From assembly GCA_964598185.1 (NCBI GenBank), contig CAZRAT010000001.1, positions 3,419-67,418 of the forward strand: a DNA stretch of 64,000 nucleotides. The letters run 5' to 3'. The position numbers and the translations under genes are program-made. Positions 374 through 53,729 of the stretch are shown here, one piece after another (the first letter of the stretch is position 1; every line of letters starts with the position of its first letter). This stretch comes from Candidatus Woesearchaeota archaeon. Lineage in GTDB: Archaea > Nanobdellota > Nanobdellia > Pacearchaeales > GW2011-AR1. The notes under the pieces were generated by a model. That model saw only the letters and a list, made by a program, of their open reading frames with translations, made no database searches and was not told the DNA's origin.

Positions 374-1192
374 TTAAACTAATTCTAAATCAACCCTCAA
401 TCTAATTTTATAAGGGGCTATCTCTCCTGCGTGTTTTATTTTCAAAACTTTAATTTTCTTTTTACTTTTCTTAGCCTCTAATTTTATCTTCTCAATAATC
501 AAACCCTCTTCTCCAACTTTACAAAAGTCATAATAATAAATTCTTGTTTTCTTTTTACTCAACATAAATGCTTGTTCAAGAAAACTATCTTTCAAACGAG
601 GACGAGGCATAACTATAACATCCATCTTAGGCAAAGTTTTCGCAACTCGCTTAATATCTCCAGGAACAATCTCAACTTTATTTTTCAAATTATTTCTCTC
701 AACATTCAACTTTGCATATTTGTTTGCTTCCCTATTTATCTCGTTAGAATAAACTTTACCACATTTTGAATTCTTCGCAATAACAATTGAAAAAGGCGCA
801 ACACCTGCAAACATCACCAAAACAGTTTCTCTTTTTTTTATCTTCTTCGCAATTTCATTTCTCTCATTACTCAACCTTGGAGAAAAATAAGTTGTATCAA
901 CATTAAAACGAAAAACACATCCGTTCTCCCTATACAAAACTTCTTTAGTCTTCTCGCCAGCCAAATGCTTTGTCTCCATCTTCCTCAATCTTCCTTTAAA
1001 CTTTCCAGACTTTTCCAAAACAGTTGTAATCTGCTTTTGCTCTTTAAGAATTTTCTTTGCAAATTTTGCCCTTAGTAAAGATTTTCTCTGAAAATCTTTC
1101 GGGGTACACCCTTGGGTGATAGAACTACTTATATCGTCTGAAAAATTCACAATAGCAATATTTCCAAGGATGTTGAATGCTCGTTGTTTCAT
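374..1192 (-). CDS. Class I SAM-dependent tRNA methyltransferase, Trm5/Taw22-like (tRNA m1G37 / wyosine pathway); carries an in-frame copy of the 54-nt palindromic element near the N-terminus
   Basis: 272 aa; motif VLVMFAGVAPFSI resembles the Trm5 D-FAGxG SAM pocket and DVIVMPRP the NLPP-like motif; the N-terminal segment GCTPKDFQRKSLLRA is encoded by a repeat copy. Confidence 0.55.
   Translation of the reverse strand: MKQRAFNILGNIAIVNFSDDISSSITQGCTPKDFQRKSLLRAKFAKKILKEQKQITTVLEKSGKFKGRLRKMETKHLAGEKTKEVLYRENGCVFRFNVDTTYFSPRLSNERNEIAKKIKKRETVLVMFAGVAPFSIVIAKNSKCGKVYSNEINREANKYAKLNVERNNLKNKVEIVPGDIKRVAKTLPKMDVIVMPRPRLKDSFLEQAFMLSKKKTRIYYYDFCKVGEEGLIIEKIKLEAKKSKKKIKVLKIKHAGEIAPYKIRLRVDLELV
1065..1120 (-). 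repeat. Palindromic in-frame mini-element (~54 nt), copy 1, inside the Trm5-like gene
   Basis: TTTGCCCTTAGTAAAGATTTTCTCTGAAAATCTTTCGGGGTACACCCTTGGGTGAT; same flanks as the other copies, with a compensated internal stem AAGATTTTC/GAAAATCTT. Confidence 0.7.
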
Positions 1193-2787: not shown

Positions 2788-2817
2788 ATTATTTAGATGT
2801 ATAAGAAATATAAATAT

Positions 2818-10372: not shown

Positions 10373-12535
10373 CTAATTTTTAGTAACTTCCTTCTTATTT
10401 TTTTCTTCTTGCTTAATTTCTTTTCCTGTTGATTCTGAAACCTCTTTTAATGCATAATCAAAATCTTGTTTTGTAATTATTAAATCTATTTTTTTCTTTG
10501 ATAAATAAACTCTTTTAATTGCACTAGTTCCAGCTTTTCTACAAACTGCTTCTATATCCGCACCATTCCAATCTTTTGTTTTATTAATGTAATCTGAAAT
10601 TTTGAAATTTTTTGCCAAAGGCATTTTTCTTATATGAACTTCGAATATTTTTTCTCTTTCTATTTTAGTTGGAATTTTTAATCTTACAATTGAGTCAATT
10701 CTTCCTGGGCGAAGTAATGCAGGATCTATTAAATCTTGCCTGTTTGTAGCAGCAATAATAATTACTTTTTCTAATTCTTCAACACCGTCTAATTCTGTAA
10801 GCAATTGATTAACAACTTTTTCAGTAGAATCATTCATTGAAGAGCCTCTTAATTTTGAAATACTATCAAACTCATCAAAAAAGATAATTGAAGGAGAAAC
10901 CATTTTTGCCTTTTTAAAAATTTCTCTAACATGTTTTTCTGACTCTCCAACCCACTTGCTTATTAATTCCGGGCCTTTTATTGAAATAAAATTAGCATTT
11001 GATTCATTTGCAACAGCTTTAGCCAAAAGAGTTTTGCCAGTTCCAGGAGGGCCTGTTAAAAGAATGCCCTTTGAAGGATTTATTCCTGCTTTAGAAAACA
11101 AATCAGGTCTTAACAAAGGTAACTCAACTAATTCTCTTAATTTTTCTTTTTCATTTTCTAAACCACCAATATCTTTCCAAGTTGTTTTCGGTTTTTTTAT
11201 TAAAACTTCTCTCATCGCAGAAGGTTCTACAAATTTCATAGCATCAATAAAATGTTGTCTTGAAATTTTTATTTTATCTAATAATTCAGTTGGAATTTTC
11301 TCTTCTAAATTTTTTAGCTGAGAAAAATATGGTTTAATAGATTTTAATCCAGCTTCTTTGCATAAAACTTCTAAATCTGCACCAGTATATCCAATAGTTT
11401 TTTCAGCAATCTCATCAAAATTGACATCTTTATCAAGGGGCATTCCACGAGTATGAATTCTTAAGATTTCTTTTCTTGCGGTTTCACTTGGAGGATTAAT
11501 TTTTAATTCTCTATCAAATCTACCAGGCCTTCTTAATGCTTCATCAACATCCTCTGGCCTATTTGTAGCAGCCATAACTACAACTTGCCCTCGGGATTTC
11601 AAACCATCCATTAAAGTTAATAACTGAGCCACAACTCTTTTTTCTGTTTGATCTATTCCTTCTGCTCTTTTAGGAGCAATAGAATCAATTTCATCAATAA
11701 AAATAATTGTAGGTGCATTCTTCTCTGCTTTTTCAAAGACATCACGAATATGCTTTTCTGATTCTCCATAATATTTTGACATTATTTCTGGACCAGCAAT
11801 AGAATAAAATGTTGAATCTGTTTCTGTTGCAACAGCTTTAGCCAAAAGAGTTTTGCCAGTTCCAGGAGGGCCTGTTAAAAGAACTCCTTTTGGAGCACCA
11901 ACACCTAATTTTTGAAAAACTTCAGGATGCTTCATTGGCATTTCAACCATTTCCCTTACTAATTCAATCTCATCTTTCAAACCTCCAATATCTTCATAAG
12001 AAATCCCTGTAGAAGTTAAATCTCCGGAATAAGCATTTTCTGAAACAATTATTTTTGTTGAGGGTGTAATAATTACATTTTCTTTTGGCAAAATTTTTGA
12101 AACAACATAGCTCAATTTTGTTCCAAAAACATCAATGACTATTTTTTGATTTAATGTTAAAGGCACATCTAATAATCTGCTATGAAAATATTCTGTTGGA
12201 TTAGCACTAAATTTTACTTCTTGCATTGGAGAAAGAGTAATTGTTTTTGCTTCACTTACTTTTGCCAAAGAAATTTCAACTTGTTCTCCAATAGAAGTAT
12301 TTATATTCGATCTTGTTGTTCCATCTAATCTTACTATTTTTTTATTTGTATCTTCTGTATGCGCTCTCATTAGTTTTAAAACAACACTTTTCTTCCCAGT
12401 TACCTCAATCAAATCTCCAGAATTAAATTTTAGAGATTCCATTATTTGTGAAGGCATTCTTGCAATTCCCTTATCAATATCCTCTTGAAGTGATTCAATA
12501 ACTTCAAGTTTTATTCTTCTCTCTTTTTTAGTCAT
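10373..12535 (-). CDS. cdc48: CDC48/VCP-like AAA+ ATPase (tandem D1+D2)
   Basis: 720 aa; N-domain plus two Walker A motifs GPPGTGKT and two Walker B motifs DEID/DEFD. Confidence 0.9.
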   Translation of the reverse strand: MTKKERRIKLEVIESLQEDIDKGIARMPSQIMESLKFNSGDLIEVTGKKSVVLKLMRAHTEDTNKKIVRLDGTTRSNINTSIGEQVEISLAKVSEAKTITLSPMQEVKFSANPTEYFHSRLLDVPLTLNQKIVIDVFGTKLSYVVSKILPKENVIITPSTKIIVSENAYSGDLTSTGISYEDIGGLKDEIELVREMVEMPMKHPEVFQKLGVGAPKGVLLTGPPGTGKTLLAKAVATETDSTFYSIAGPEIMSKYYGESEKHIRDVFEKAEKNAPTIIFIDEIDSIAPKRAEGIDQTEKRVVAQLLTLMDGLKSRGQVVVMAATNRPEDVDEALRRPGRFDRELKINPPSETARKEILRIHTRGMPLDKDVNFDEIAEKTIGYTGADLEVLCKEAGLKSIKPYFSQLKNLEEKIPTELLDKIKISRQHFIDAMKFVEPSAMREVLIKKPKTTWKDIGGLENEKEKLRELVELPLLRPDLFSKAGINPSKGILLTGPPGTGKTLLAKAVANESNANFISIKGPELISKWVGESEKHVREIFKKAKMVSPSIIFFDEFDSISKLRGSSMNDSTEKVVNQLLTELDGVEELEKVIIIAATNRQDLIDPALLRPGRIDSIVRLKIPTKIEREKIFEVHIRKMPLAKNFKISDYINKTKDWNGADIEAVCRKAGTSAIKRVYLSKKKIDLIITKQDFDYALKEVSESTGKEIKQEEKNKKEVTKN

Positions 12536-12912
12536 TTTTTATCAAAAACCACCTCTAAAACTCCATTTTTAAAAGTATGACTAAAATTTTTAGTTTTAAT
12601 AAAATCTGGCAGAGATTTTTTTATTGACCTTCCCTGAAGCAATTTTTGGGATAGATAACCTTGTATTTTTTCAATGTTTTTTTTCTTAATTTTAATTTCA
12701 ATATTTCTTTTAGCAACTATTAAATTTATATCTTCTTTAAAATATCCTGGCAATTCAAAAATAACAAAAATTTTATTTTCAGTTTCTACAAAATCAATAA
12801 TTCTTTCTTCTCTTTCAGTTTGTATCATTTTTTCTGAAGGTTGCAATCTTGAATCACCAAAAAATTCTCTTACAATATTTTCAAAAGGATCTTCTTCATC
12901 AAAAAAACTCAT
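12532..12912 (-). CDS. Small heat-shock protein (Hsp20/alpha-crystallin)
   Basis: 126 aa; alpha-crystallin-domain core DFVETENKIFVIFELPGYFKEDINL; overlaps the CDC48 gene by 4 nt. Confidence 0.7.
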   Translation of the reverse strand: MSFFDEEDPFENIVREFFGDSRLQPSEKMIQTEREERIIDFVETENKIFVIFELPGYFKEDINLIVAKRNIEIKIKKKNIEKIQGYLSQKLLQGRSIKKSLPDFIKTKNFSHTFKNGVLEVVFDKK

Positions 12913-12936
12913 TTTATTTATTCTCCATTTTCCATT

Positions 12937-15228
12937 TTATCCAAGATAACTATTAGCCATCGGCACAGCCGCCTTTGCAGATTTCAAAAAATTCTCTTCA
13001 ACTTTTTTGTAAACATCAAGAGTTGATTTTGTCACACTCGGCTTTATTTTCTTCAATGCCTCATCAAAATGTTTCTTCTTCACTTCTTTAGAACTCATAT
13101 CCTCTCTCAACGCAAGCATCGCAGCCTCACGAACCAACGCCTCCAAGTCAGCACCTGTATAACCAATTGTCTTTTTCGCAACTTCCTTCATCTTCACATT
13201 TTTAGCCAAAGGCATTTTCTTAGTATGAATATCCAAAATCATTTTCCTGCCTTCTTCTTCCGGCGCATTCACCAACAAAATTCTATCAAACCTTCCTGGT
13301 CTTAACAAAGCAGGGTCAAGCATATCAGGACGATTAGTTGCTCCAATAATAAGAATGTCATTCAAGTCCTCCAGCCCGTCCATTTCTGCAAGCAACTGAT
13401 TCAAAACTCTTTCTGTAACTTTTGAGCCAGTCTCATTACCTCTCTTACCAGCCAAAGAATCAATCTCATCAAAAAACACAATACATGGTGCAACTTGTCT
13501 TGCTCTCTCAAAAATCTTCCTCATGCCTTCCTCAGATTTACCAACCCACATACTCAATAACGAAGGTCCTTTAACTTGAATAAAATTTGCCTCTGATTCT
13601 TTTGCAACAGCCTTAGCCAAAAGCGTCTTCCCTGTTCCAGGCGGTCCATACAATAAAATCCCCCTCGACGGACGAATCCCCATCCTTTCAAAACTTTCAG
13701 GATATTTCATTGGCCATTCAACTGCTTCTTTCAATTCCCCCTTCACACTATCCAAACCTCCAACAGAATCCCAATCAACATTAGGCGTCTCAACCAAAAC
13801 TTCTCTCATTGCCGAAGGTCTAACAACTCTAAGAGCATCCATAAAATCATCCTTCTTAACAATTAACTTCGCCAACACTTCTGGAGAAATCTGTTCATCA
13901 CTCTCCATTTTCATATCAGGCAAAACTTTCCTCAAAACACTCATTGCTGCTTCTTTTGTTAATGCTTCCAAATCAGCCCCGACAAAACCATGTGTAACAG
14001 AAGCTATTTCTTCCAATTTAACTTCTTTAGTCAACGGCATTCCTCTAGAATGGATTTTCAAAACAGCCAACCTTCCTTCTTTATCTGGAACATTAATTAT
14101 AATTTCTCTATCAAACCTTCCTGGTCTTCTCAATGCAGGGTCAAGCGCATTAACACGATTTGTTGCTCCAATAACTACAACATTGCCTCTTGATTTCAAA
14201 CCATCCATCATTGTCAAAATCTGCGATACAACTCTTCGCTCAACTTCGCCACTAACATCTTCTCTCTTCGGTGCAATCGCATCTATTTCATCAATAAAAA
14301 TAATTGAAGGAGCGTTCTTTTCTGCTTCTTCAAAAATATCTCTAATTTTTTTTTCTGATTCTCCATAATATTTAGACATAATTTCTGGCCCATTTAATAA
14401 AATAAAATGTGCCTCAGATTCATTTGCAACTGCTTTAGCTAAAAGAGTTTTCCCTGTTCCAGGTGGCCCGTGTAACAAAACACCTTTAGGTGGTTCAATT
14501 CCTAACTTCTGAAAAATCTCAGGGTGCTTTATCGGAATCTCAACCATCTCACGAATTTTTTTAATTTCTTCTTGCAAACCTCCAATATCTTCATAATTAA
14601 TTTCAGATACAATGTCCTCGCTAATTTCAACGGCTTTAGGATTCAAAACAACCTCTGTATTGTCTGTGATAATAACTGGTTGATTAGGATTAGTTGATAC
14701 AACTAAAAATTTAATTTGTGCAACACCTCCTCCTAAATTTCCAAAACCTAAATTTCCTAACATTCCTCCAAACATATCATTAAACTCTCCAAAATCATCT
14801 GACAACAAATCCTGTCTTCTTTGCACCCCGCCTAAAACAACTATATCTCCTTTAATTGTTGCCCGTCCCAAAAGTCCTCTTCTCAAACTTTCTGGGTCTC
14901 CTTTAACCATAATTCCTTTTTGCGCAGGAGCAATCATAATTTTCTTTGCTTCTTTAATTTCAACTTTAGAAACTTCGACAACATCTCCTAAACCACTCTT
15001 TGCATTTTTTCTCAAAATACCATCAATTCGAATAATGCCCTCGCCAACATCAGCAGGGTATGCCCTATCAGCAATGGCAACAGTCGCACGATTACCCTTA
15101 ATCAAAATCACATCCCCTCGCTGAACCCCCAACTCTTTCATCAACTCATGGTCCAACCGAGCAATGCCTTTGTAAACATCGTCCTGCTGTGCTTCTACAA
15201 CTTTTAATTGAATTTTATTTTTTGTCAT
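12937..15228 (-). CDS. cdc48: CDC48/VCP-like AAA+ ATPase, second paralog
   Basis: 763 aa; two GPPGTGKT Walker A motifs, a glycine-rich linker, and second-region homology. Confidence 0.9.
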
Positions 15229-17154: not shown

Positions 17155-17218
17155 TAAAGAAGATTAAAATTATAGTTTTTAAATCTTTCCCCTGTAGTAA
17201 CTTTTAAGTTATAACTTA

Positions 17219-17240
17219 TGGCCCTGGAGGGATTTGCGGC
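17219..17240 (-). repeat. Partial copy of the tRNA-Lys 3' end (CAAATCCCTCCAGGGCCA), about 50 nt downstream of the gene
   Basis: Minus strand ...GCCGCAAATCCCTCCAGGGCCAT versus tRNA ...GGTTCAAATCCCTCCAGGGCCA. Confidence 0.6.
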
Positions 17241-17287
17241 TTCGAAGAAGTCATCCCTGTGGGAAACCCCTTGGGGTGAAAATCCAA

Positions 17288-17411
17288 TGGCCCTGGAGGG
17301 ATTTGAACCCCCGACACCTAGATATCTCTGAAACAAGTCCAGTTTAAATTCGCTGAACAAAGTTCATTGTCTTAAGAGTCTAGTGCTCTAACCAGGCTGA
17401 GCTACAGAGCC
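17288..17411 (-). tRNA. tRNA-Lys (anticodon CTT) with a ~49-nt intron at the canonical 37/38 site; CCA not encoded
   Basis: Reverse complement gives GGCTCTG-TA-GCTCAGCCTGGTTAGAGC-A-CTAGA-CTCTTAA-[intron GACAATG...AGATA]-TCTAG-GTGTC-GGGGGTTCAAATCCCTC-CAGGGCC-A; all stems pair. Confidence 0.8.
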
Positions 17412-17470
17412 ATCATGACTGCGAAGCAACTTAAAGGCTGAGGCCTCGAATGAGGTCATCCCGTGGGAAG

Positions 17471-17484
17471 CTACAGAGCCATAC
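17471..17484 (-). repeat. Partial copy of the tRNA-Lys 5' end (GGCTCTGTAGCT), about 57 nt upstream of the gene
   Basis: Plus strand gaagctacagagccat versus gene gagctacagagccat. Confidence 0.55.
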
Positions 17485-28360: not shown

Positions 28361-30778
28361 CTAAAATTCAACTTTAAATTTCCCTTTCTTAATCTCTCTC
28401 ACATTTGTAACACCTTTCAAATCTTCAAGAACATCTTTTAATTTCTCTTTATTACTAATTGTTAAAACACATTCTGCATTCATTGGCTTTCCTACTTTTG
28501 TTTTTTCCTGACGAACTTTTGAAATAATCTCTAAAATCAAATCCAAAGTTTTATCTGATTTATCTTTGCCCCTAGTAGATATTTTCTTAGAAAATGTCTC
28601 GGGGTACGCCTGTGGTGTCCCAACTTCAGGCCAATCAGAAATATGAATACTCTTCTCTTTTTCAATCTTCCTAAAATATTCTTGATAAATTTCTTCTGTA
28701 ATAAAAGGCATAATCGGGGAAGCCATTTTCAAAATATCTAAGAGCATCTTGTACAAAGCGTACTGTGCAGAAATCTTCTTCTCCCCTTTCTCATTGTAAA
28801 TTCTCTTCTTAACAATCTCAAGATAATTATCACAAAACATTTTCCAGAAAAAATTCTCAAATAATAACTTTGCTCTTGGAATATTATATTCTTCATAAGC
28901 CTTAGTGACTTTCTTAATTACTTGATTAAGTTCCCCTAAAAATAAAGAATCTAATTTTTCCAATTTTTTTGGCCGCTTACAATCCCAATCTTCTAAATTC
29001 ATAAAAACAAACCTTGATGCATTAATTAATTTTGTTGAAAATCGTTTTCCTGCTACAAGTTCTTTATCTGAAAACGCTACAGCCTCAGCAGGTCCAATTG
29101 ACGCGCAAAGATACCTCAAAACATCTGCACCATATTTCTCAAAAATTTCTTGAAGCGAAATTCCGTTTCCTAAAGACTTACTCATTTTTCTTCCGTCTCT
29201 GCCAAGCATCCAACCATTTATGTACAATTCTTCCCAAGGGTTTCTTTTATAATGAAGCTGAGATTTAACAATTGTATTAAAATCCCAAAACGTAATTATA
29301 TCCTGCCCATTACGTCGAATTGAAAAAGGTTTATCTTTAATTTTTTTATGAGCAGGAGTGCCCTTTAAAATATCTTTAATAATTGTCGGTGTCAAGGAAG
29401 AAGTGGCCCAAGTATTCATAATATCTTTTTCAGGGATAAATTCTTTGCTCTTGCATTTTGGACACTCTTTTATAGGAGGTTTTGTTTCCATTGGAACAAC
29501 AGGCAAATCCTCTTCATTAGCTAAAATAACTTCACCGCATTTAGCACAATACCACACAGGAAAAGAAATCCCAAAAGGAATCTGACGCGAAATACACCAA
29601 TCCCACTTCAATCCTTTAACCCAATTATCATAACGAACTTTCATATTAGGAGGGGACCATTTAATCTCATTGCCCCACTTTAACAAATCATTTTTCAAAT
29701 CAAGATATTTAACAAACCATTGTTTATGACTAAAAAATTCAGCAGGATTTTTACACCGCTCACACACATTAACTATATGCACAATTTTCTTCTTGCTCTT
29801 AAGAAAACCGCCTTTCTTTAAATCATTCAAAATCTCTTCACGCGCTTCTTCAATTTTCATTCCTTCATATTTCCCTGCCAAAGAAGTCATTCTTCCATCC
29901 TTACCAATTGCTTCTTTAATTGGAAGGTTATATTGTCTCTGCCACTCCATGTCCTTCTGGTCCCCAAAAGTCGCAGAATATGCAATCCCTGTTCCTTTAT
30001 CCATTTCAACACCCTCATCTTCCATAATCGGAACTTCAATATTAAACAAAGGAATCTTCGCCATCTTCCCTTTAAGATGTTTGTACCTCTTATCTTTTGG
30101 ATGATAAAAAACCGCAACACTTGCAGGAAATAATTCAGGACGTGTTGTCGAAATAACCAAATCCTTGTCATCAACTTTCAAAATTATATCTGAAAATGTA
30201 CCAAACACTTCTTTATCTTCTAACTCAACCTGTCCCATTGTAGTCTGACAACAAGGACACCATAAAGCAGGAGCATCTACTCTGTACTCCCTACCCATTT
30301 TATATAAATCAATAAAAGACTTCTGGGAAATACGTCTCGCTCTTTTATCAATAGTCGAATAAAAAATATCAAAATCCGCAGACACCCCCAATGTTTTCAT
30401 GTCTTTAAAAAACATAGGAATAAATTCTTCGTGAATCATCTTATCTGCTAACTCAATAAATTCTCCCCTTTTTATTTTTTTAGAATCAACTTTTTTCTCT
30501 TTCTCAACAAGCTTCAATGTAGGCAACCCATTATTATCTGTTCCAAACGGGTTCAAAATCTCAAATCCACGCATCCTCTTAAACCTGGCAAAAAAATCCT
30601 GATGACTATCACCTAACGCGTGACCAATATGAAGCCTACCACTAACTGTTGGCGGAGGAGTATCAAATGAAAAAATTTCCTTCTTTGTATTAACATCAAA
30701 CTTGTACATCTTCTCTTTATCCCAAAAATCTGCCCATTTCTTTTCTATTGCCTTAAAATCAAAATTATTTTTAGCCAT
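28361..30778 (-). CDS. valS: Valyl-tRNA synthetase (class Ia); contains an in-frame copy of the 54-nt palindromic element in the C-terminal region
   Basis: 805 aa; PPPTVSGRLHIGHALG (HIGH), KMSKSLGN, WCISRQ; size and PPxxTG motif favour ValRS over IleRS/LeuRS. Confidence 0.75.
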   Translation of the reverse strand: MAKNNFDFKAIEKKWADFWDKEKMYKFDVNTKKEIFSFDTPPPTVSGRLHIGHALGDSHQDFFARFKRMRGFEILNPFGTDNNGLPTLKLVEKEKKVDSKKIKRGEFIELADKMIHEEFIPMFFKDMKTLGVSADFDIFYSTIDKRARRISQKSFIDLYKMGREYRVDAPALWCPCCQTTMGQVELEDKEVFGTFSDIILKVDDKDLVISTTRPELFPASVAVFYHPKDKRYKHLKGKMAKIPLFNIEVPIMEDEGVEMDKGTGIAYSATFGDQKDMEWQRQYNLPIKEAIGKDGRMTSLAGKYEGMKIEEAREEILNDLKKGGFLKSKKKIVHIVNVCERCKNPAEFFSHKQWFVKYLDLKNDLLKWGNEIKWSPPNMKVRYDNWVKGLKWDWCISRQIPFGISFPVWYCAKCGEVILANEEDLPVVPMETKPPIKECPKCKSKEFIPEKDIMNTWATSSLTPTIIKDILKGTPAHKKIKDKPFSIRRNGQDIITFWDFNTIVKSQLHYKRNPWEELYINGWMLGRDGRKMSKSLGNGISLQEIFEKYGADVLRYLCASIGPAEAVAFSDKELVAGKRFSTKLINASRFVFMNLEDWDCKRPKKLEKLDSLFLGELNQVIKKVTKAYEEYNIPRAKLLFENFFWKMFCDNYLEIVKKRIYNEKGEKKISAQYALYKMLLDILKMASPIMPFITEEIYQEYFRKIEKEKSIHISDWPEVGTPQAYPETFSKKISTRGKDKSDKTLDLILEIISKVRQEKTKVGKPMNAECVLTISNKEKLKDVLEDLKGVTNVREIKKGKFKVEF
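28565..28618 (-). repeat. Palindromic in-frame mini-element, copy 2, inside ValRS
   Basis: TTTGCCCCTAGTAGATATTTTCTTAGAAAATGTCTCGGGGTACGCCTGTGGTGT. Confidence 0.7.
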
Positions 30779-35870: not shown

Positions 35871-37340
35871 ATGGTGAAAAAAAAGAACATGCGATTTCCA
35901 TCGGAAGCCCTTAAAGAAATCGCTAATCGGAACAGGAAGGGAAAATCGAAAAAAACCGCGAGGTTGTTTTCATCTCCTAAAATAGAAAAATTAAAGAAAA
36001 AAGCAAGAAAGTACAGCATAAAAGAAGGAATTTTTACTTCAGCTAAAAACTCCTTTGGAGATTATTATGTTTCTCCATTTGCAATTGCAATTAATTCAAG
36101 TTCATCGGTTGTTGCTATGATAAGTGCTTTCAGCGGATTGCTCGGTCCAATAAGCCAAATGTTCGGCTCAAGACTACCTGAAAAATACCCTAGGAAAAAA
36201 ATTGTTCTAAGAAGTATTTTTTTCGAATCATTAATTTGGTTGCCGTTTATTGCAATTGCAATTTTGTTCTATAGCGGGATTTTATTAGAATCTCTTCCAA
36301 TTTTGGTTTTATTTTCTTTTTCATTATATACAATTGCAGGAAATCTTGGATATCCAGCATGGTTTTCTTGGATGGGTGATATTGTTGAAAATAAACACAG
36401 AGGAAAATATTTCTCAAAAAGAAATCTTTTAATGGGATTCACTTCTGTTGTTCTAGCAATCTCCGCGGCATTTTTCCTAGATTATTTTGGGAAAAACCAC
36501 CATATAATGTTCGGATTTGCAATTTTATTTTCTTTAGCATTACTCTCAAGATTAACTTGTTGGAAAATTCTCCATAAACAATACGAACCAAAAATAAAAT
36601 TAAAAAAAGGTTACTACTTTTCATTTTGGGATTTTTTAATTAATTCAAATAAAAATAACTTCGGAAAATTCTCATTATTCAGATTCTTTTTCACATTCAC
36701 AACTGCAATCTCAAGCCCTCTTTTAGTAGTTTATCTTCTAAGACATTTAAATTTTTCATACACTGCGTATATGGTAATAATCTTCTCAGGAACAATTTTC
36801 TCATTAATTGTTTTAGAATTGTGGGGAAAATTCGCAGACAGATATGGTAATTATAGGACACTATGTATTTCAACTTTAATAATTCCTTTTATTCCAATAT
36901 TGTGGGTTTTAAATTCAAATATTTTTTATTTAATTTTCATCCCGTCAGCATTAAGCGGAATTGCTTGGGCAGGAATCCACTTGTCTGAAACAAATTTTAT
37001 ATACGATAATGTTAGTTACCAAAAAAGGGGGCTCGCAATTTCCTATTACAATATGTTCTGGGGAATTGGACTTTTCTTAGGAGCATCACTAGGGGCACTT
37101 TTAATAAAAATCCTCGACACTAATTTCATACAACCAATAATTTTAATATTCATTATTGGTGCATTAGCAAGAGCTGCATCAGTTATATGGGGGCTTCCAA
37201 AAATAAAAGAAATTAAAAAAACAAAAAAATTCACATCTTCAAAAGCATTCAAGGAAATTATCATGAAAGAAGGAGCCCCAACAATCCATGAAGAAGTAAA
37301 TGATATTATTCATATAAAAAAATATTTATATCTTAAATAA
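35871..37340 (+). CDS. Polytopic membrane transporter (MFS-like); its first ~30 codons are a copy of the duplicated hairpin element
   Basis: 489 aa, about 12 hydrophobic helices; the N-terminal MRFPSEALKEIANRNRKGKSKK... is encoded by repeat 35891-35958. Confidence 0.35.
   Translation: MVKKKNMRFPSEALKEIANRNRKGKSKKTARLFSSPKIEKLKKKARKYSIKEGIFTSAKNSFGDYYVSPFAIAINSSSSVVAMISAFSGLLGPISQMFGSRLPEKYPRKKIVLRSIFFESLIWLPFIAIAILFYSGILLESLPILVLFSFSLYTIAGNLGYPAWFSWMGDIVENKHRGKYFSKRNLLMGFTSVVLAISAAFFLDYFGKNHHIMFGFAILFSLALLSRLTCWKILHKQYEPKIKLKKGYYFSFWDFLINSNKNNFGKFSLFRFFFTFTTAISSPLLVVYLLRHLNFSYTAYMVIIFSGTIFSLIVLELWGKFADRYGNYRTLCISTLIIPFIPILWVLNSNIFYLIFIPSALSGIAWAGIHLSETNFIYDNVSYQKRGLAISYYNMFWGIGLFLGASLGALLIKILDTNFIQPIILIFIIGALARAASVIWGLPKIKEIKKTKKFTSSKAFKEIIMKEGAPTIHEEVNDIIHIKKYLYLK
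35891..35958 (+). repeat. Duplicated hairpin element, copy A (fused in-frame to the transporter N-terminus)
   Basis: GCGATTTCCATCGGAAGCCCTTAAAGAAATCGCTAATCGGAACAGGAAGGGAAAATCGAAAAAAACCGCGAGG; perfect 8-bp inverted repeat GCGATTTC/GAAATCGC. Confidence 0.65.
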
Positions 37341-38030: not shown

Positions 38031-38052
38031 GAGCCTGCACGGATTTGTGGGT
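38031..38052 (-). repeat. Partial copy of the tRNA-Ile 3' end (CAAATCCGTGCAGGCTCA), about 75 nt downstream of the gene
   Basis: Plus strand atgagcctgcacggatttg occurs at 38031 and again at the gene 3' end (38121). Confidence 0.6.
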
Positions 38053-38121: not shown

Positions 38122-38240
38122 TGAGCCTGCACGGATTTGAACCGTGGACCCCTACCTTTCTGAATCGTATATCGGTTCTAAAGAAACGAACTCGTTTGTA
38201 CTTATCAGAGTAGTGCTCTGCCAGACTGAGCTACAGGCTC
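38122..38240 (-). tRNA. tRNA-Ile (anticodon GAT) with a ~45-nt intron; CCA not encoded
   Basis: Reverse complement gives GAGCCTG-TA-GCTCAGTCTGGCAGAGC-A-CTACT-CTGATAA-[intron GTACAAACGAG...CAGAAA]-GGTAG-GGGTC-CACGGTTCAAATCCGTG-CAGGCTC-A. Confidence 0.8.
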
Positions 38241-45915: not shown

Positions 45916-46539
45916 TTATTTCTTTTTATTCTTAACAGGCTTCCCAAACTTTTTATTAAACCAATAAGCCAAAAATATAACTGCTACCAAACCTAATAAA
46001 GAAATTATAAATCTAAACAATTCTCCTCCATATTGCCAATAACTTCCAGCACCATAAACTAAAGTTCCAACTCCTCCACCCATTAATCCTGCTCCAACTG
46101 CCTCAAGGTGAAAAAGAAATCCTCCAATCAATAAAATCAAAATTCCAAAAGGCAAAGCAACATAAAAAATCTTTTTTGCCCGTTCTTCTCGCGCATCATC
46201 ATAATTTTGTCTACAAGTAAAATCCCTATCACAAAAACCCTCTGCACCTTCAACAGGCTTCACAGCCTCATAAACACTCCACTTGCCCCCAATCTCCTCG
46301 CACCTTTCTTGAGTCTGAATTACTTCTTGTGTTTTCACATCTCCACAAAAATCCTCATATTGTTGAATAGGATAAAAAACACTAATACCATTAATAGTCA
46401 CAAAAATCGTCAATACAACAATTGCAATTCCAAGAATAATGTTCTTCAAACTCATAAAAAATAAAAGACAAAACATTTTATAAACTCTTCTACTACAATT
46501 AAAATATGACAAACTATGAAGAATTACTTGAACAAGCAT
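45916..46539 (-). CDS. Membrane protein with a Cys-rich extracytoplasmic segment
   Basis: 207 aa; N-terminal TM, several Cys residues, C-terminal TM. Confidence 0.3.
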   Translation of the reverse strand: MLVQVILHSLSYFNCSRRVYKMFCLLFFMSLKNIILGIAIVVLTIFVTINGISVFYPIQQYEDFCGDVKTQEVIQTQERCEEIGGKWSVYEAVKPVEGAEGFCDRDFTCRQNYDDAREERAKKIFYVALPFGILILLIGGFLFHLEAVGAGLMGGGVGTLVYGAGSYWQYGGELFRFIISLLGLVAVIFLAYWFNKKFGKPVKNKKK

Positions 46540-46916
46540 ACGAAAAAGTGAAACAAGTTGATAATTCTAGCGAAAGATTTAAAATTCCACAAGTTGAAGG
46601 GCATTTTGAAGGAAGAAAGACAGTTTTGACAAACTTTTTCCAAATCGCTTCTCATCTAAGAAGAAAACCAGAACATTTTCAAAAATTTCTCTTAAAAGAA
46701 CTCGCAGCATCAGGACAACAAGAAGAAGACAGACTCATCTTAAATATAAAAGTTTCAAGCGCAAAAATAAATCAGAAAATAGAACAATATGTCAAGGAAT
46801 TCATTCTATGCAAAGAATGCGGAAAACCAGATACAGAATTAACAAAAGAAGACAGACTAACATTTATTAATTGCCTGGCGTGTGGAGCAAAACACAGTGT
46901 AAGGAGTAAAATCTAA
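46506..46916 (+). CDS. eif2b: Translation initiation factor aIF2 beta subunit
   Basis: 136 aa; C-terminal C4 Zn ribbon CKECGKPDTEL...CLACGAKH and the eIF2-beta/eIF5 core. Confidence 0.8.
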   Translation: MTNYEELLEQAYEKVKQVDNSSERFKIPQVEGHFEGRKTVLTNFFQIASHLRRKPEHFQKFLLKELAASGQQEEDRLILNIKVSSAKINQKIEQYVKEFILCKECGKPDTELTKEDRLTFINCLACGAKHSVRSKI

Positions 46917-46964
46917 ATCAAAAACCTTATAAAACAAATTCTCTTAGAAAATAAAAGATTCATA

Positions 46965-46996
46965 CCCTAAAAATTTAGGGGTACACCAAGTGGTGT
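46965..46996 (-). repeat. Palindromic mini-element, truncated intergenic copy lacking the central hairpin
   Basis: CCCTAAAAATTTAGGGGTACACCAAGTGGTGT: conserved GGGGTAC plus ACACC/GGTGT hairpin and CCCTAAA/TTTAGGG palindrome. Confidence 0.55.
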
Positions 46997-47025: not shown

Positions 47026-47175
47026 ATGACAGAAGGATATTGTGTTAAGTGTAAAAAAAAGGTTGAAATGCTAAAACCTGTAGAAAGCAAGACCAAAAAA
47101 GGCACAAAAATTGCCAAAGGGAAATGCCCTGACTGCGGAACAACTGTTTGCAGAATGGGTGGGATAACAAAATAA
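47026..47175 (+). CDS. Small Zn-ribbon protein (49 aa); below the ORF-track cutoff
   Basis: MTEGYCVKCKKKVEMLKP...GKCPDCGTTVCRMGGITK with CxxC...CxxC; GAGGT ribosome-binding site 8 nt upstream. Confidence 0.4.
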   Translation: MTEGYCVKCKKKVEMLKPVESKTKKGTKIAKGKCPDCGTTVCRMGGITK

Positions 47176-47878: not shown

Positions 47879-47986
47879 ATGAAATTAAAACTATTGGCTT
47901 TCAAGCGATTTCCATCGGAGGCTCTTGAAGAAATCGCATCACGGAACAAGAAGGGAAATCCAAAAAAACCGCTTAGGTTTTGTTGA
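47879..47986 (+). CDS. Upstream ORF/leader peptide (35 codons) encoded by the duplicated hairpin element; its TGA stop lies 1 nt before the aIF1A ATG
   Basis: ATG AAA TTA ... MKLKLLAFKRFPSEALEEIASRNKKGNPKKPLRFC*; about 82% nucleotide identity to the 5' end of the 35871 gene. Confidence 0.3.
   Translation: MKLKLLAFKRFPSEALEEIASRNKKGNPKKPLRFC
47905..47982 (+). repeat. Duplicated hairpin element, copy B (forms the uORF upstream of aIF1A)
   Basis: GCGATTTCCATCGGAGGCTCTTGAAGAAATCGCATCACGGAACAAGAAGGGAAATCCAAAAAAACCGCTTAGG; about 82% identical to copy A. Confidence 0.65.
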
Positions 47987-49261: not shown

Positions 49262-49390
49262 ATTCTTTTATGTCCCGGTGGCTCAGTTGGTAGAGCGATC
49301 GGCTGTTAAGTACAAATCAAGATTTGTTCATTCCATAATCTTGAAATTACGGAAACCGATAGGTCGCTGGTTCGAGTCCAGCCCGGGACG
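49262..49390 (+). tRNA. tRNA-Asn (anticodon GTT) with a ~56-nt intron; followed by a T8 run
   Basis: GTCCCGG-TG-GCTCAGTTGGTAGAGC-G-ATCGG-CTGTTAA-[intron GTACAAATCAAG...GGAAA]-CCGAT-AGGTC-GCTGGTTCGAGTCCAGC-CCGGGAC-G. Confidence 0.8.
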
Positions 49391-52379: not shown

Positions 52380-52988
52380 CTATAAGATATCTTTCAATTT
52401 TTCAATCCTTCTCCAACTTTTTTTCAAATTTTCATTAGATTTCTTAACAATCAATTTCAAAAAATCATCATCAACTAAAATTTTACCCTCAGAAATAATT
52501 GGAAACTCAATTTTTTCAGTTCCTATTAATTCCAGAACAAATCTATCTCCCCCAGAAATAATCCCTCCTCGTTTAAAACCAACTGCTCTTGCCTTTTTCA
52601 AAAAATCCAAACTTTGCTCCAAACTTTCACAAGCAACATGCAAAATAACTGGCTCTTGTTTAAATTTGATATTGCCCTTAGTAAAAATCTTCGTAGAAGA
52701 TTTATCGGGGTACACGCGAAGTGTGTCAGATTTTTTTATTTTCTTCAATTCTTTTTTCACTTCTTCAAATGAAATCAAATCATGCCAAACATTTACAAAA
52801 AGTCCTGGGCTTTTTTTTATATTATCAACAATCAAAACAATTCTCCCAGAACACGAAGAAGTTGTATAAAAATTTTCCAAAGAATTAATCTTCTCGCACA
52901 AATTAACAATCTTCTTATCCCAATCTCCTTTAGAAGATTTATCTAATTTAGACAAAGTAGATTTTTTTTGTTGAACAAAACTTTTCAT
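52380..52988 (-). CDS. taw3: tRNA wybutosine/wyosine-synthesizing protein 3 (TYW3/Taw3); contains an in-frame copy of the 54-nt palindromic element
   Basis: 202 aa; signature FYTTSSCSGRIVL; the insert SDTLRVYPDKSSTKIFTKG is encoded by repeat 52672-52726. Confidence 0.7.
   Translation of the reverse strand: MKSFVQQKKSTLSKLDKSSKGDWDKKIVNLCEKINSLENFYTTSSCSGRIVLIVDNIKKSPGLFVNVWHDLISFEEVKKELKKIKKSDTLRVYPDKSSTKIFTKGNIKFKQEPVILHVACESLEQSLDFLKKARAVGFKRGGIISGGDRFVLELIGTEKIEFPIISEGKILVDDDFLKLIVKKSNENLKKSWRRIEKLKDIL
52672..52726 (-). repeat. Palindromic in-frame mini-element, copy 4, inside TYW3
   Basis: TTGCCCTTAGTAAAAATCTTCGTAGAAGATTTATCGGGGTACACGCGAAGTGTGT. Confidence 0.75.
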
Positions 52989-53012
52989 AAAAAAATTAAA
53001 CAGCCAGACTTT

Positions 53013-53729
53013 TTAATCTTTCACCAATATCTCACATTTAATATTTTCTTCCTCGCAAAGTTCCTTGAACTCTTGAGCATCTTCTTCTGTCCCCACTATA
53101 GAACCATAATGCATTGGAATAACCAAATCAGGTTTAATCAATTTCGCCGCCTCAACAGCCTCTTCTACACTCATTGTAAACCTTCCTCCAATAGGCAATA
53201 AAGCAATTAATTTTTTGCCATGTTGTTTATAACCTGTAAGTTTCTGCATTTCAGGAATAACATCTGTGTCTCCTGCATGATAAATTAACAAATTATTTAT
53301 TTTCAAAAAATACCCAACCCATAATTCTTCCTTGGGATGAAAAGGTTTATCAATATTATATGCAGGTAAAACAGAAATCTTTAGATTTCCAAAAATTAAC
53401 TCACTCCCTGGCTCAACAACATCCAATTTAATGGGCACCTCAAACCGCACAATCTTGCTCTGACAATCAGCAGTCAAAACAATCCGCGTCCCTTCCTTAA
53501 TAATTTTCTTAATATCCGCAACACTGCAATGGTCATAATGACTATGTGTCAACAAAATCAAATCTGCCTTCTCAGAATCTTCTTTAATATTATATGGATC
53601 AATGTAAATTATTTTGCCCTTAGTAAAAATCTTCGTAGAAGATTTATCGGGGTACGCCGGTGGTGTAGAATTCTTGATTAAAAACCCTGAATGCCCCAAC
53701 CATTTAAGCTCAAGATCATTAATTTGCAT
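53013..53729 (-). CDS. Metallo-beta-lactamase-fold hydrolase; contains an in-frame copy of the 54-nt palindromic element in the first beta-hairpin
   Basis: 238 aa; WLGHSGFLIK...THSHYDH; insert NSTPPAYPDKSSTKIFTKG falls between FLIK and KIIYIDP. Confidence 0.75.
   Translation of the reverse strand: MQINDLELKWLGHSGFLIKNSTPPAYPDKSSTKIFTKGKIIYIDPYNIKEDSEKADLILLTHSHYDHCSVADIKKIIKEGTRIVLTADCQSKIVRFEVPIKLDVVEPGSELIFGNLKISVLPAYNIDKPFHPKEELWVGYFLKINNLLIYHAGDTDVIPEMQKLTGYKQHGKKLIALLPIGGRFTMSVEEAVEAAKLIKPDLVIPMHYGSIVGTEEDAQEFKELCEEENIKCEILVKD
53613..53666 (-). repeat. Palindromic in-frame mini-element, copy 5, inside the MBL hydrolase gene
   Basis: TTTGCCCTTAGTAAAAATCTTCGTAGAAGATTTATCGGGGTACGCCGGTGGTGT; 42 nt identical to copy 4. 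Confidence 0.75.

What the first reader, a model, noticed from the sequence alone, without database searches (positions are those of the whole stretch)
52672..53666. A ~54-nt palindromic mini-element inserted in-frame in four unrelated housekeeping genes (RPE-like), at 1065-1120, 28565-28618, 52672-52726, 53613-53666, with a truncated intergenic copy at 46965-46996
Four near-identical copies of TTTGCCCYTAGTARANATYTTCNNAGAARATNTNTCGGGGTAC-RCSNNNRGTGT lie inside the Trm5-like, ValRS, TYW3 and MBL-hydrolase ORFs. All are in the same orientation relative to the host gene, are 18 codons long, and contain no stop codon. The host reading frames pass through the element in different phases (Trm5 is phase-shifted by 1 relative to TYW3), so the conservation is at the nucleotide/RNA level, not a shared protein domain. 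Each copy adds an ~18-aa loop such as YPDKSSTKIFTKG. In the MBL enzyme the insert falls exactly in the short beta-hairpin between the FLIK and KIIYIDP strands, as expected for a tolerated insertion. Two internal stems show compensatory changes between copies: AAATCTTC/GAAGATTT versus AAGATTTTC/GAAAATCTT versus GACATTTTC/GAAAATATC, and ACGCC/GGTGT versus ACACC/GGTGT versus CACCC/GGGTG. This covariation argues for a selected hairpin structure. The behaviour resembles Rickettsia palindromic elements, which also insert in-frame into ORFs. I am not aware of a described archaeal equivalent, so this is the strongest candidate for something new in the window. An alternative is an mRNA-level intervening sequence that is excised.
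Basis: seen in the sequence. Interest (0 to 1): 0.85.

Follow-up and report, generated by a model that had tools for sequence, protein, structure and literature searches.

The report
Mobile 51-base hairpin inside archaeal genes
A 51-base DNA element that folds into two hairpins has inserted itself, in frame and without breaking them, into essential genes of tiny DPANN archaea, adding a floppy 17-amino-acid loop to each protein; this looks like an undescribed archaeal counterpart of the Rickettsia palindromic elements.

Summary
Four full copies and one short copy lie at the stated places, and a covariance model finds nothing else like them in the window. Ortholog comparison sets the unit at 51 nt (17 codons, not 18): a bulged 40-nt hairpin followed by an 11-12-nt hairpin.

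About 170 non-redundant copies occur in about 30 Woesearchaeota/Pacearchaeota genomes and many metagenomes, and essentially nowhere else.

- **Structure:** the stems covary strongly (98% paired; 0 of 500 shuffles reach the observed covariation).
- **Hosts:** unrelated essential genes. All three reading phases occur, and a stop codon is avoided by length variants, so the copies are translated, not spliced.
- **Mobility:** close orthologs lack the insert exactly. The same sites are filled and empty in a patchy way, with different subfamilies. Copies also nest inside the loop of other copies.
- **Conservation:** orthologous copies are far more conserved than the host gene's synonymous sites.
- **Orientation:** about 129 of 130 intragenic copies lie antisense to the host gene. 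One is sense (PheRS).

Best reading: a non-autonomous, hairpin-dependent mobile element that works like an RPE but belongs to no known family. Its mobilising enzyme and the cause of the orientation rule are unknown.

The parts
53616..53666 (+). Full 51-nt copy inside the MBL-fold hydrolase gene. It is read on the - strand as TPPAYPDKSSTKIFTKG. Hairpin 1 spans 53616-53653: lower stem 53616-53620 with 53649-53653, conserved bulges TA and T around G53623-C53648, upper stem 53625-53634 with 53638-53647, and a triloop. Hairpin 2 spans 53654-53666.
   Evidence: 72.7 bits. Boundaries come from empty orthologs P0003 and P0008 (221 aa against 238 aa). In the AF2 model the insert is coil with pLDDT below 50.
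52674..52724 (+). Full 51-nt copy inside the TYW3 gene, read as TLRVYPDKSSTKIFTKG. Its hairpin 1 is identical to that of the neighbouring MBL copy. Its hairpin 2 is the rare variant ACACGCGAAGTGT.
   Evidence: 66.9 bits. PDB homologs 2qg3 and 2drv, and orthologs in L078, L079 and L080, lack it; L049 has it.
28568..28618 (+). Full 51-nt copy inside the valyl-tRNA synthetase gene, read as TPQAYPETFSKKISTRG.
   Evidence: 77.2 bits. Members P0140 and P0142 of the same 90% cluster lack exactly these 17 residues. P0141 carries a different insert about 10 residues upstream.
1068..1118 (+). Full copy inside the Trm5-like (Met_10) methyltransferase gene, read in another phase as TQGCTPKDFQRKSLLRA.
   Evidence: 76.6 bits. 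About 100 of 120 homologs are empty at this site and about 14 are filled, always in this phase. The window's version has also changed a few flanking residues, so the end coordinate is good to about 3 nt.
46964..46996 (+). Short form of the element: lower stem with a small loop (CCCTAAA/TTTAGGG), TAC, then hairpin 2. It is intergenic, between the + strand genes aIF2-beta (46506-46916) and a 49-aa zinc-ribbon-like ORF (47026-47175). It is therefore sense to its neighbours.
   Evidence: 15.5 bits, E 0.15; weak on its own. Comparable 10-residue short forms occupy the MBL site in about 12 orthologs.
53013..53729 (-). Host gene: MBL-fold metal-dependent hydrolase (UPF0173-like).
52380..52988 (-). 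Host gene: TYW3 (wybutosine pathway methyltransferase family).
28361..30778 (-). Host gene: valyl-tRNA synthetase.
374..1192 (-). Host gene: Trm5-like tRNA methyltransferase.

Best explanation
**What it is.** A non-autonomous, structure-dependent mobile DNA element of 51 nt. It is a family with several subfamilies, confined to Woesearchaeota/Pacearchaeota (GTDB Nanoarchaeota).

**Shown.**
- It is a self-contained unit running from GCCC to the end of the second hairpin.
- It enters DNA without duplicating the target, immediately 3' of a T-run (YTTT^) on the strand that carries the better-folding form. On a host coding strand this is just 5' of AAA.
- It also enters the apical loop of other copies.
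- It is gained and/or lost precisely at the same sites in closely related lineages.
- Its length is a multiple of three. Read antisense, it gives Pro/Gly-bounded, Lys/Ser-rich hydrophilic peptides. One phase holds a stop (TAC-TAR), and only 39- or 42-nt core variants occur in that phase.
- Copies therefore persist inside essential genes as translated 17-residue loops.

**Inferred.**
- The conserved lower stem, the bulges (TA, T), the TAC linker and the covarying stems are the recognition features for a trans-acting enzyme that acts on folded (probably single-stranded) DNA. Selection for mobility, not for host function, keeps the hairpins intact.
- HUH/Y1 'peel-and-paste' (IS200/IS605 or REP-RAYT-like) is the known chemistry that fits best: no terminal inverted repeats, no target duplication, seamless gain and loss, and a short motif next to one end. 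No such enzyme was looked for successfully, so this step has low confidence (about 0.25).
- The roughly 129:1 antisense bias inside genes most likely combines three things. The target is 2.4 times commoner on template strands. It lies next to Lys codons in surface loops rather than Phe/Leu/Ile codons in protein cores. The sense-frame peptides are more hydrophobic. A transcription-linked effect is not excluded.
For: **Family and structure.**
- 74 loci in 30 MAG species, with only 3 chance hits elsewhere. More than 115 metagenome loci.
- Helix 1 is 97.9% paired. Eight pairs show double changes, and 0 of 500 shuffles reach the observed covariation; slid controls collapse to 32-57% paired.
- Hairpin 2 has compensated variants: ACCC/GGGT, ACTC/GAGT, GCT/AGT, GCC/GGC, CTCC/GGAG.
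- A lower-stem variant CTCT/AGAG also exists.

**Unit and target.**
- Empty and filled orthologs differ by exactly 17 codons in MBL and ValRS; TYW3 and Trm5 orthologs also mostly lack the insert at that point.
- No duplicated flank is seen.
- The 5' flank is T at -1 in 76 of 77 copies, T at -2 in 63, T at -3 in 53, and Y at -4 in 71.

**Mobility.**
- MBL site: 79 empty, about 20 long, about 12 short and several nested forms, interleaved on the tree with at least 21 state changes.
- The window's MBL is filled while P0003, in the same 90% cluster, is empty.
- ValRS relatives are filled at site A, empty, or filled at site B.
- The Trm5 site carries several subfamilies.
- Kae1 carries copies at four or more different sites.
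- Three nested copies sit in apical loops.
- Element identity is 92-96% (third codon positions 94-100%), against host identity of 79-83% (third positions 58-65%). Flanks show no elevated identity.

**Translation.**
- All roughly 130 intragenic copies keep the frame.
- Phase-0 copies all have 39- or 42-nt cores that dodge the stop.
- The insert is a low-confidence loop between two strands.

**Orientation.**
- 60 + 69 antisense copies in ORFs of at least 300 nt, against one sense copy in PheRS (L089).
- Sense frames are open in 60-62 of 77 copies, but GRAVY is 0.0/+0.45 against -0.9/-0.83 for antisense frames. YTTT is 2.4 times commoner on template strands.
Against: - No autonomous partner or transposase was found. 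No long element is bounded by the two halves in about 1.1 Mb of loci, and there is no copy in viral contigs.
- Repeated use of exactly the same nucleotide position in MBL, TYW3 and Trm5 is more site-specific than a YTTT target explains. It needs very strong filtering by selection, precise excision, or an unknown targeting feature.
- The hairpins abut the element ends. In IS200/IS605 the cleavage sites lie 10-19 nt from the hairpins (from my own knowledge).
- Orientation follows local transcription, not a fixed replication direction. L003, L004 and L160 hold copies in opposite absolute orientation within a few kb, each antisense to its local gene or rRNA. This does not fit the lagging-strand bias of IS608-type elements.
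- The target-frequency and peptide arguments may not be enough for 129:1. Six contigs carry a copy antisense to transcription just upstream of the 16S rRNA 5' end, in the presumed untranslated leader.
- Differences between orthologous MBL copies fall only at unpaired positions. This is also what in-situ selection for a host function would give.
Confidence: 0.72

Rival explanations
1. **Host-functional structured element.** The hairpin, formed either on the template DNA strand or on an antisense RNA transcribed from the + strand, is kept by purifying selection where it sits. It might act as an antisense regulator, a protein-binding site, or a pausing signal in highly expressed genes and the rRNA leader. 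Its spread by mobility would then be secondary or ancient.
For: - Orthologous MBL copies are 92-96% identical where host third codon positions are 58-65% identical, and all their differences lie in loops or mismatch positions.
- G.U/U.G pairs on the + strand number 73, against 7 A.C/C.A. Excluding the Y-G column, whose C/T choice the search pattern allowed, the count is 28 to 7.
- As RNA the + strand is 3.1 kcal/mol more stable on average, in 68 of 77 copies.
- Orientation is tied to transcription even upstream of 16S rRNA.
- The same subfamilies are conserved across species.
Against: - Most orthologs do without the element, and filled and empty states are interleaved.
- Decayed copies exist, such as TSQEPHDESSVKISTKDK and IPSAYLDKSS, as do possible remnants (TKG, SKG).
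- Copies nest inside, and so disrupt, the loop of other copies.
- Host genes and sites are miscellaneous.
- No Rfam family matches.
- Much of the G.U excess comes from two master variants (the Y-G pair and hairpin-2 type B) rather than many independent events. It coincides with Lys/Arg codon choice.
- With DNA energy parameters the two strands differ by only 0.4 kcal/mol.
Confidence: 0.15
2. **Intervening sequence removed or skipped during expression.** The element would be an archaeal bulge-helix-bulge intron in mRNA, or a translational bypass ('byp'-like) element. The protein would then lack the 17 residues. The strict orientation relative to transcription would follow naturally.
For: - The near-absolute orientation relative to transcription, including a pre-rRNA leader.
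- The organism has the splicing machinery: three tRNA genes carry introns of about 47 nt.
- The element is a compact hairpin of the size of known byps (from my own knowledge).
Against: - Every intragenic copy is a multiple of three and stop-free in the host frame.
- The one phase that would meet TAC-TAR is used only by 39- or 42-nt core variants that avoid the stop. This constraint has no reason to exist if the sequence were removed or skipped.
- Both bulges of hairpin 1 lie on the same strand, so there is no helix-bulge-helix geometry with two 3-nt bulges 4 bp apart on either strand.
- A sense-oriented copy is also in frame and stop-free in PheRS.
- Intergenic copies occur in both orientations.
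Confidence: 0.05
3. **A shared protein motif or small domain, or an assembly/annotation artefact**, rather than a DNA-level element.
For: Three of the four window copies encode nearly the same peptide (..AYP[DE]KSS.KI.TKG).
Against: - The same nucleotide sequence is read in three phases, giving unrelated peptides.
- Copies occur between genes and upstream of 16S rRNA.
- Nucleotide conservation exceeds what the peptide requires.
- The exact filled MBL protein is on record in 104 blocks of independent assemblies, and the family is found in dozens of unrelated studies.
Confidence: 0.02

Closest known systems
Rickettsia palindromic elements (RPE)
   Same: Both are hairpin-forming repeats found many times inside unrelated essential genes of a reduced genome. 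Both are in frame and stop-free, are translated as extra surface segments compatible with the fold, and also occur between genes (review PMC10969869).
   Different: - RPEs are about 100-150 bp, bacterial, and read in one conserved frame. This element is 51 nt, archaeal, and read in three phases.
- This element has two unequal hairpins and shows nesting.
- About 99% of its intragenic copies are antisense to the host gene.
- No sequence relationship is expected and none was tested.
Classical prokaryotic MITEs (including Coxiella QMITEs and Correia elements)
   Same: Both are small, non-coding, multicopy and presumably mobilised in trans. Both can create in-frame fusions.
   Different: - No target-site duplication was found at any resolved junction.
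- There are no terminal inverted repeats in the usual sense: a 5-bp stem at one end and a separate hairpin at the other.
- 51 nt is at or below the size that MITE finders use. A 2024 survey recorded a Woesearchaeal genome among the densest in MITEs but described no such element (PMC11602168).
IS200/IS605-derived elements and REP/REPIN-RAYT systems
   Same: Both are recognised by DNA hairpins rather than inverted terminal repeats. Both lack target duplication, are gained and lost seamlessly, lie next to a short conserved flank motif, and have asymmetric strands.
   Different: - Orientation here follows transcription, not replication direction.
- The hairpins reach the very ends of the element.
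- REPs are extragenic, whereas these copies are mostly intragenic.
- No Y1/HUH gene has been linked to the element.
Very small dispersed repeats of cyanobacteria (SDRs) and GC clusters/byps of yeast mitochondria (from my own knowledge)
   Same: Both are tiny (20-55 nt), relatively GC-rich hairpin units in AT-rich genomes. They insert into one another and into genes or structural RNA regions, and their mobilising mechanism is unknown.
   Different: - They occur in different domains of life and have different sequences.
- Byps are skipped by the ribosome and need not be in frame; the element here is constrained to be translatable.

Membership tests
Rickettsia palindromic elements | Repeated hairpin-forming element inserted in frame in unrelated protein-coding genes | tested here: met
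   About 130 intragenic in-frame copies in aaRS, Kae1, topoisomerase, Cbf5, GatE, TYW1/TYW3, Trm5, ribosomal protein and MBL genes.
Rickettsia palindromic elements | Size of about 100-150 bp, occurrence in Rickettsia, and membership of one of the RPE sequence families | tested here: not met
   The unit is 51 nt. The genome scan found real copies only in Woesearchaeota/Pacearchaeota/Nanoarchaeota MAGs. Direct alignment to RPE consensus sequences was not possible with these tools.
Classical MITE | Target-site duplication flanking the element | tested here: not met
   Empty and filled junctions in MBL and TYW3, and the nested copies, show no duplicated bases. At the protein level, ValRS empty and filled forms differ by exactly 17 residues. 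An ambiguity of 1-2 nt cannot be excluded.
Classical MITE | Terminal inverted repeats matching those of an autonomous IS in the same genomes | tested here: inconclusive
   The only inverted repeat at the left end pairs internally (GCCCY/GGGGU), and the right end is a separate hairpin. No long element bounded by the halves was found in the fetched loci, but whole genomes could not be searched.
IS200/IS605-type or REP-RAYT-type hairpin elements | Hairpin ends, no inverted terminal repeats, no target duplication, and a short conserved motif flanking one end | tested here: met
   Structure and covariation. The YTTT^ flank. Seamless junctions.
IS200/IS605-type or REP-RAYT-type hairpin elements | Orientation set by replication direction (lagging-strand template) | tested here: not met
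   L003, L004 and L160 hold two copies in opposite absolute orientation within a few kb, each antisense to the local gene or rRNA.
IS200/IS605-type or REP-RAYT-type hairpin elements | A Y1/HUH transposase (TnpA or RAYT) encoded in the same genomes | not tested
Archaeal bulge-helix-bulge intron | Two 3-nt bulges on opposite strands separated by a 4-bp helix at the exon-intron junctions | tested here: not met
   Predicted and covariation-supported structures have both bulges on one strand, and there is no pairing with the flanks.
Archaeal bulge-helix-bulge intron | Removal from the transcript, so length and stops are unconstrained | tested here: not met
   All intragenic copies keep the frame and avoid the stop-containing phase. 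Removal itself cannot be tested without RNA data.
Any Rfam RNA family | A match at or near the gathering score | tested here: not met
   Only three tRNAs in the window reach gathering score. Nothing lies at the element even at E up to 10.

The most novel reading that the evidence does not exclude
The elements are not ordinary passengers. They would be a new class of hairpin-guided element with three unusual properties. First, they insert and excise seamlessly at specific positions of essential genes and of the 16S rRNA leader. Second, their orientation is coupled to transcription rather than replication. Third, their structure is kept by selection after insertion. This would imply either an unknown single-strand or RNA-linked integration mechanism in DPANN archaea, or a domesticated template-strand or antisense-RNA structure that the host uses. 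A side effect would be a reversible way of adding and removing loops in core proteins.
Probability: 0.25. Interest if true: 0.85.

Novelty: new variant of a known kind. Interest (0 to 1): 0.68.

Why it matters
- **Selfish DNA in compact genomes.** DPANN archaea have tiny, gene-dense genomes with almost no room for selfish DNA. This element shows one way mobile DNA survives there: it is short, a multiple of three, and harmless when translated. It therefore lives inside essential genes such as aminoacyl-tRNA synthetases, Kae1, topoisomerase and ribosomal proteins, and beside 16S rRNA.
- **Practical consequences.** It is a source of lineage-specific 17-residue (and nested, longer) insertions. These will confuse alignments, phylogenies and structure predictions of marker proteins in Woesearchaeota and Pacearchaeota. 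Conversely, it is a ready-made marker of surface loops that tolerate insertion.
- **A testable mechanistic puzzle.** There is no target duplication and no terminal repeats. The same sites are used recurrently, copies nest in hairpin loops, and orientation relative to transcription is about 99% uniform. Together these point to an enzyme or process not yet characterised in these organisms.
- **Prior description.** The searchable literature lists archaeal MITEs only for Sulfolobus, haloarchaea and a few others. I found nothing describing an RPE-like intragenic element in archaea.

Tried and rejected
- **Known RNA families.** Rfam at gathering score on the whole window and at E up to 10 on 52640-53700 gave nothing at the element. 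By eye I also checked for C/D box, H/ACA (ACA is present in only half the copies) and K-turn (no tandem G.A) and rejected all three.
- **Relationship to the tRNA introns.** The approximately 47-nt tRNA introns of the window show no similarity to the element.
- **Bulge-helix-bulge intron and translational bypass.** Rejected on geometry and on the frame and stop constraint.
- **Viral carriage.** The strict pattern has no match in IMG/VR.
- **Autonomous partner.** I looked for left and right halves separated by more than 130 nt in all fetched loci. I found only diverged or nested copies.
- **Replication-direction explanation of orientation.** Rejected because of opposite orientations within single contigs.
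- **Stop codons as the cause of the orientation bias.** Rejected: two sense frames are open in about 80% of copies.
- **Concerted evolution within genomes as the main cause of conservation.** Only weak support: within-genome similarity 0.696 against 0.672 between genomes.
- **Co-conversion of flanks by homologous recombination.** No elevated identity next to the element.
- **Exact 'excised' versions of three window proteins (MBL, TYW3, Trm5).** None is in the 15-billion-protein collection, so there is no evidence of polymorphism within this species.
- **Intron-like split genes around non-ORF copies.** In L051 the flanks are two separate genes.
- **Literature.** Seven searches and two papers read; none describes this element.
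Full report

Yes. The four copies and the shortened fifth are at the stated places on the + strand.
- An all-against-all repeat search groups the four as one family of 56 nt at 71-100% identity (D3).
- The core TCGGGGTAC occurs exactly four times, only in these copies. With one mismatch allowed there are six matches against 1.6 expected.
- A covariance model built later from 77 family members scores the four copies at 67-77 bits (E 1e-13 to 5e-16). It scores the short copy at 15.5 bits (E 0.15). Nothing else in the window is comparable.
- All four host ORFs are on the - strand and read through the element: Trm5-like 374-1192, ValRS 28361-30778, TYW3 52380-52988 and MBL hydrolase 53013-53729.
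- ValRS, TYW3 and MBL use one phase (..AYP[DE]..T[KR]G).

**2. Exact unit.**

- Among 120 MBL homologs, most are 221 aa and read ..FLIKNS-K-IIYIDP... The window protein is 238 aa and carries TPPAYPDKSSTKIFTKG between S and K.
- At the DNA level, the filled gene differs from the empty genes of L077 and L078 by 51 nt. These run from the G of GCCC to the last T of GGTGT (53616-53666), with no duplicated flank.
- ValRS relatives P0140 and P0142 lack exactly the same 17 residues.
- TYW3 of L078, L079 and L080, and the solved TYW3 homologs, lack them too.
- About 100 of 120 Trm5 homologs are empty at that site.
- The unit is therefore 17 codons, not 18. It consists of a 40-nt bulged hairpin directly followed by an 11-12-nt hairpin.

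**3. The family.**

- One scan of 185,579 species-representative genomes with GCCCYTAGTA-N19-23-TCGGGGTAC returned 74 loci. Of these, 71 come from 30 MAGs labelled Woesearchaeota, Pacearchaeota, Nanoarchaeota or 'archaeon'. The other three (Planctomycetota, Fibrella, Bathyarchaeota) lack the upper stem and are chance matches.
- The model found about 20 more diverged copies in the fetched loci. They include TAG-to-TTG/CAG variants, a lower stem changed from CCCY/GGGG to CTCT/AGAG, and other second-hairpin types.
- After removing duplicates there are about 170 strict-pattern copies.

**4. Structure.**

- On 77 copies, the proposed first hairpin is 97.9% paired. Eight of 16 pairs show changes on both sides (for example A-U, C-G, G-C and U-A at one position). 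No shuffle out of 500 reaches the observed covariation, and sliding the partner by 1-3 columns drops pairing to 32-57%.
- The lower stem, the bulges TA and T, and the TAC linker are invariant in this set, partly by construction of the search pattern. The diverged copies show that TAG can vary.
- The second hairpin exists in compensated versions: ACCC/GGGT, ACTC/GAGT, GCT/AGT, GCC/GGC and CTCC/GGAG.
- The + strand, which is the template strand of the host genes, pairs better. There are 73 G.U against 7 A.C. As RNA it is 3.1 kcal/mol more stable on average, in 68 of 77 copies. With DNA parameters the difference is only 0.4 kcal/mol.
- Much of the G.U excess traces to two ancestral variants and to Lys/Arg codon choice, so I treat the strand asymmetry as suggestive only.

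**5. Context and translation.**

- Of 78 copies from genomes plus the window, 60 lie in ORFs of at least 300 nt and 6 in shorter ones, all antisense.
- Of 93 new metagenome copies, 69 lie antisense in long ORFs.
- All three phases occur. They give TPQAYPEKSSKKIFTKG, HHRRTPKNLRRRFLLGA/TQGCTPK.. and TPKGVPRNISKEMSTKG.
- The reverse complement of GCCCYTAGTA contains TAC-TAR, which closes one phase for a 40-nt core. Copies in that phase all have 39- or 42-nt cores that step over the stop.
- This constraint, with universal frame preservation, means the copies are translated.
- Hosts are miscellaneous core genes: class I and II aminoacyl-tRNA synthetases, topoisomerase, GatE, Cbf5/TruB, Kae1/TsaD (at least four different sites in different species), TYW1, ribosomal proteins S2 and S4e, and an RNase-Z-like hydrolase.
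- An AlphaFold model of the window's MBL protein (mean pLDDT 86) places the insert as coil, with pLDDT below 50, between strands 15-20 and 40-43.

**6. Evidence of mobility.**

- (a) At the single MBL site, 120 homologs show 79 empty, about 20 long, about 12 short (10 residues, APKGVPSPEG-like), several nested (30-46 residues) and one TKG remnant. These states are interleaved on a tree of the rest of the protein, with at least 21 changes by parsimony. For example, P0002 (QNS[insert]K) sits between P0039 and P0045 (QNSK). The window protein shares a 90% cluster with the empty P0003.
- (b) ValRS relatives at 83% identity are filled at one site, empty, or filled at another site about 10 residues away.
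- (c) The Trm5 and TYW3 sites are filled in scattered lineages by different subfamilies, while the window's nearest relatives are empty.
- (d) Three nested copies (L079, L080, L015) have an inner copy inserted after TCTT(T) in the apical loop of an outer one, in the same orientation and with the same boundaries.
- (e) The 5' flank is T at -1 in 76 of 77 copies, with T, T, Y before it.
- (f) Between the window, L049 and L079, the MBL gene is 79-83% identical (third codon positions 58-65%). The element is 92-96% identical (third positions 94-100%), its flanks show no elevated identity, and its few differences all lie at unpaired positions.
- (g) Each genome holds several stem subfamilies, and the same subfamilies recur across species. 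Similarity is 0.696 within genomes against 0.672 between them.
- Together these show an element family whose copies are younger than the host lineages, or are constrained. It enters the same permissive positions repeatedly and/or leaves them precisely.

**7. Orientation.**

- Inside long ORFs the count is about 129 antisense to 1 sense. The exception is a clean in-frame sense copy in PheRS-alpha (L089..HPARDMQDTFFL[APSKNFEKIFRGTPLGV]KESQ..). So the sense orientation is possible but rare.
- Stops do not explain this, because two sense frames are open in 60-62 of 77 copies.
- Contributing factors: YTTT is 2.4 times commoner on template strands. In antisense orientation the target lies beside Lys codons. 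Sense-frame peptides are more hydrophobic, with GRAVY 0.0/+0.45 against -0.9/-0.83.
- Replication direction is not the cause. Three contigs hold copies in opposite absolute orientation, each antisense to its local transcription unit.
- Intergenic copies are mixed. The window's short copy, L108, L124 and L131 are sense; L051, L088, L153 and L168 are antisense.
- Six contigs carry a copy 8-12 nt upstream of the 16S rRNA 5' end, all antisense to the rRNA. A transcription- or RNA-level component therefore remains possible. I leave this as the main unexplained point.

**8. What it is.**

- The best-supported reading is a non-autonomous mobile element recognised through its folded shape. It persists in genes because it is frame-neutral and encodes a tolerated loop.
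- It works like the Rickettsia palindromic elements but is not a member of that family: size, host and sequence families all differ.
- It fails the MITE criterion of target duplication.
- It shares several features with IS200/IS605 and REP-type hairpin elements, but it fails their replication-linked orientation and no Y1/HUH gene has been tied to it.
- It is not a bulge-helix-bulge intron or a bypass element.
- No Rfam family matches.
- The literature I could search lists no DPANN or intragenic archaeal equivalent. A 2024 survey only notes a high MITE density in one Woesearchaeal genome.

**9. Verdict.**

The element is a new variant of a known kind. Three features are genuinely odd and deserve experimental follow-up: the orientation rule, the recurrent exact sites, and conservation above the host's synonymous level.

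Noticed in passing
window 3920-4002, 35888-35970, 47902-47984 (+ strand): A second repeat family of about 80 nt (61-100% identity) has a stem GCGAYTTC/GAARTCGC that shows one compensatory change (C-G against T-A). In all three copies one frame reads R[FL]PSEAL[KE]E[IV]A. The copy at 35888 lies at the start of a 489-aa ORF (35871-37340). No Rfam match. It may be another in-frame mini-element or a shared N-terminal or leader motif.
   Followed up: partly
window 17288-17411 (-), 38122-38240 (-), 49272-49390 (+): Three tRNA genes each carry an intron of about 47 nt at the canonical position. Rfam finds them, but ARAGORN finds none. The introns are unrelated to the 51-nt element.
   Followed up: partly
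window 17218-17236 vs 17287-17305; 17401-17413 vs 17470-17482; near 38040 and 49488: Each of the three tRNA genes is followed 50-95 nt downstream by a direct repeat of its own 3' end (19, about 22 and about 14 nt). The tRNA at 17288-17411 also has its first 13 nt repeated 56 nt upstream. This looks like attachment-site remnants or small insertions with long duplications. It remains unexplained.
   Followed up: partly
window 17237-17286 and 17414-17469: The spacers between those tRNA-end repeats are GC-rich strings of mini-hairpins (for example TCCCACGGGATGACCTC..GAGGCCTCAGCC on the - strand). They closely match modules fused in frame to the 51-nt element in other genomes (L064, L080..PSHRDDLQGQRPQAYPE..). 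Several other kinds of mini-hairpin insert therefore circulate in these archaea.
   Followed up: partly
Proteins P0004, P0038, P0041, P0084, P0055, P0033; loci L026:1220-1276, L047:7135-7192, L063:3131-3180: Further insert types sit inside or beside the element at the MBL site and elsewhere. One is a small hairpin plus TTCTC between GGGG and the second hairpin (peptide ..EPLRG..). Another is a 20-residue APDQVGLKEGVPFFEG form. A separate 22-residue insert lies upstream in P0055.
   Followed up: partly
L004:6460-6517, L097:~65-115, L139:~150-200, L157:41-91, L160:25-75, L165 (element-oriented position 361 on the - strand): A copy of the element lies 8-12 nt upstream of the mature 5' end of 16S rRNA in six contigs. 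It is always antisense to the rRNA and belongs to different stem subfamilies in different contigs.
   Followed up: partly
L089:856-906 within ORF 88-1533: This is the only sense-oriented intragenic copy found. It is in frame in phenylalanyl-tRNA synthetase alpha, just after the HPARDMQDTFFL motif, and is read as APSKNFEKIFRGTPLGV.
   Followed up: yes
L078 TYW3 (2561-3121); proteins P0049 and P0026: Three-residue SKG/TKG segments sit at otherwise empty insertion sites. In P0026 a TKG is followed by a full copy. These look like footprints of imprecise loss that keep the last 9 nt of the element (ACTAAGGGC).
   Followed up: no
window 10842-14557: Four copies of a 300-nt segment (62-100% identity) are spaced 819, 1775 and 822 nt apart on the - strand. 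They are probably tandem paralogous genes and were not examined.
   Followed up: no
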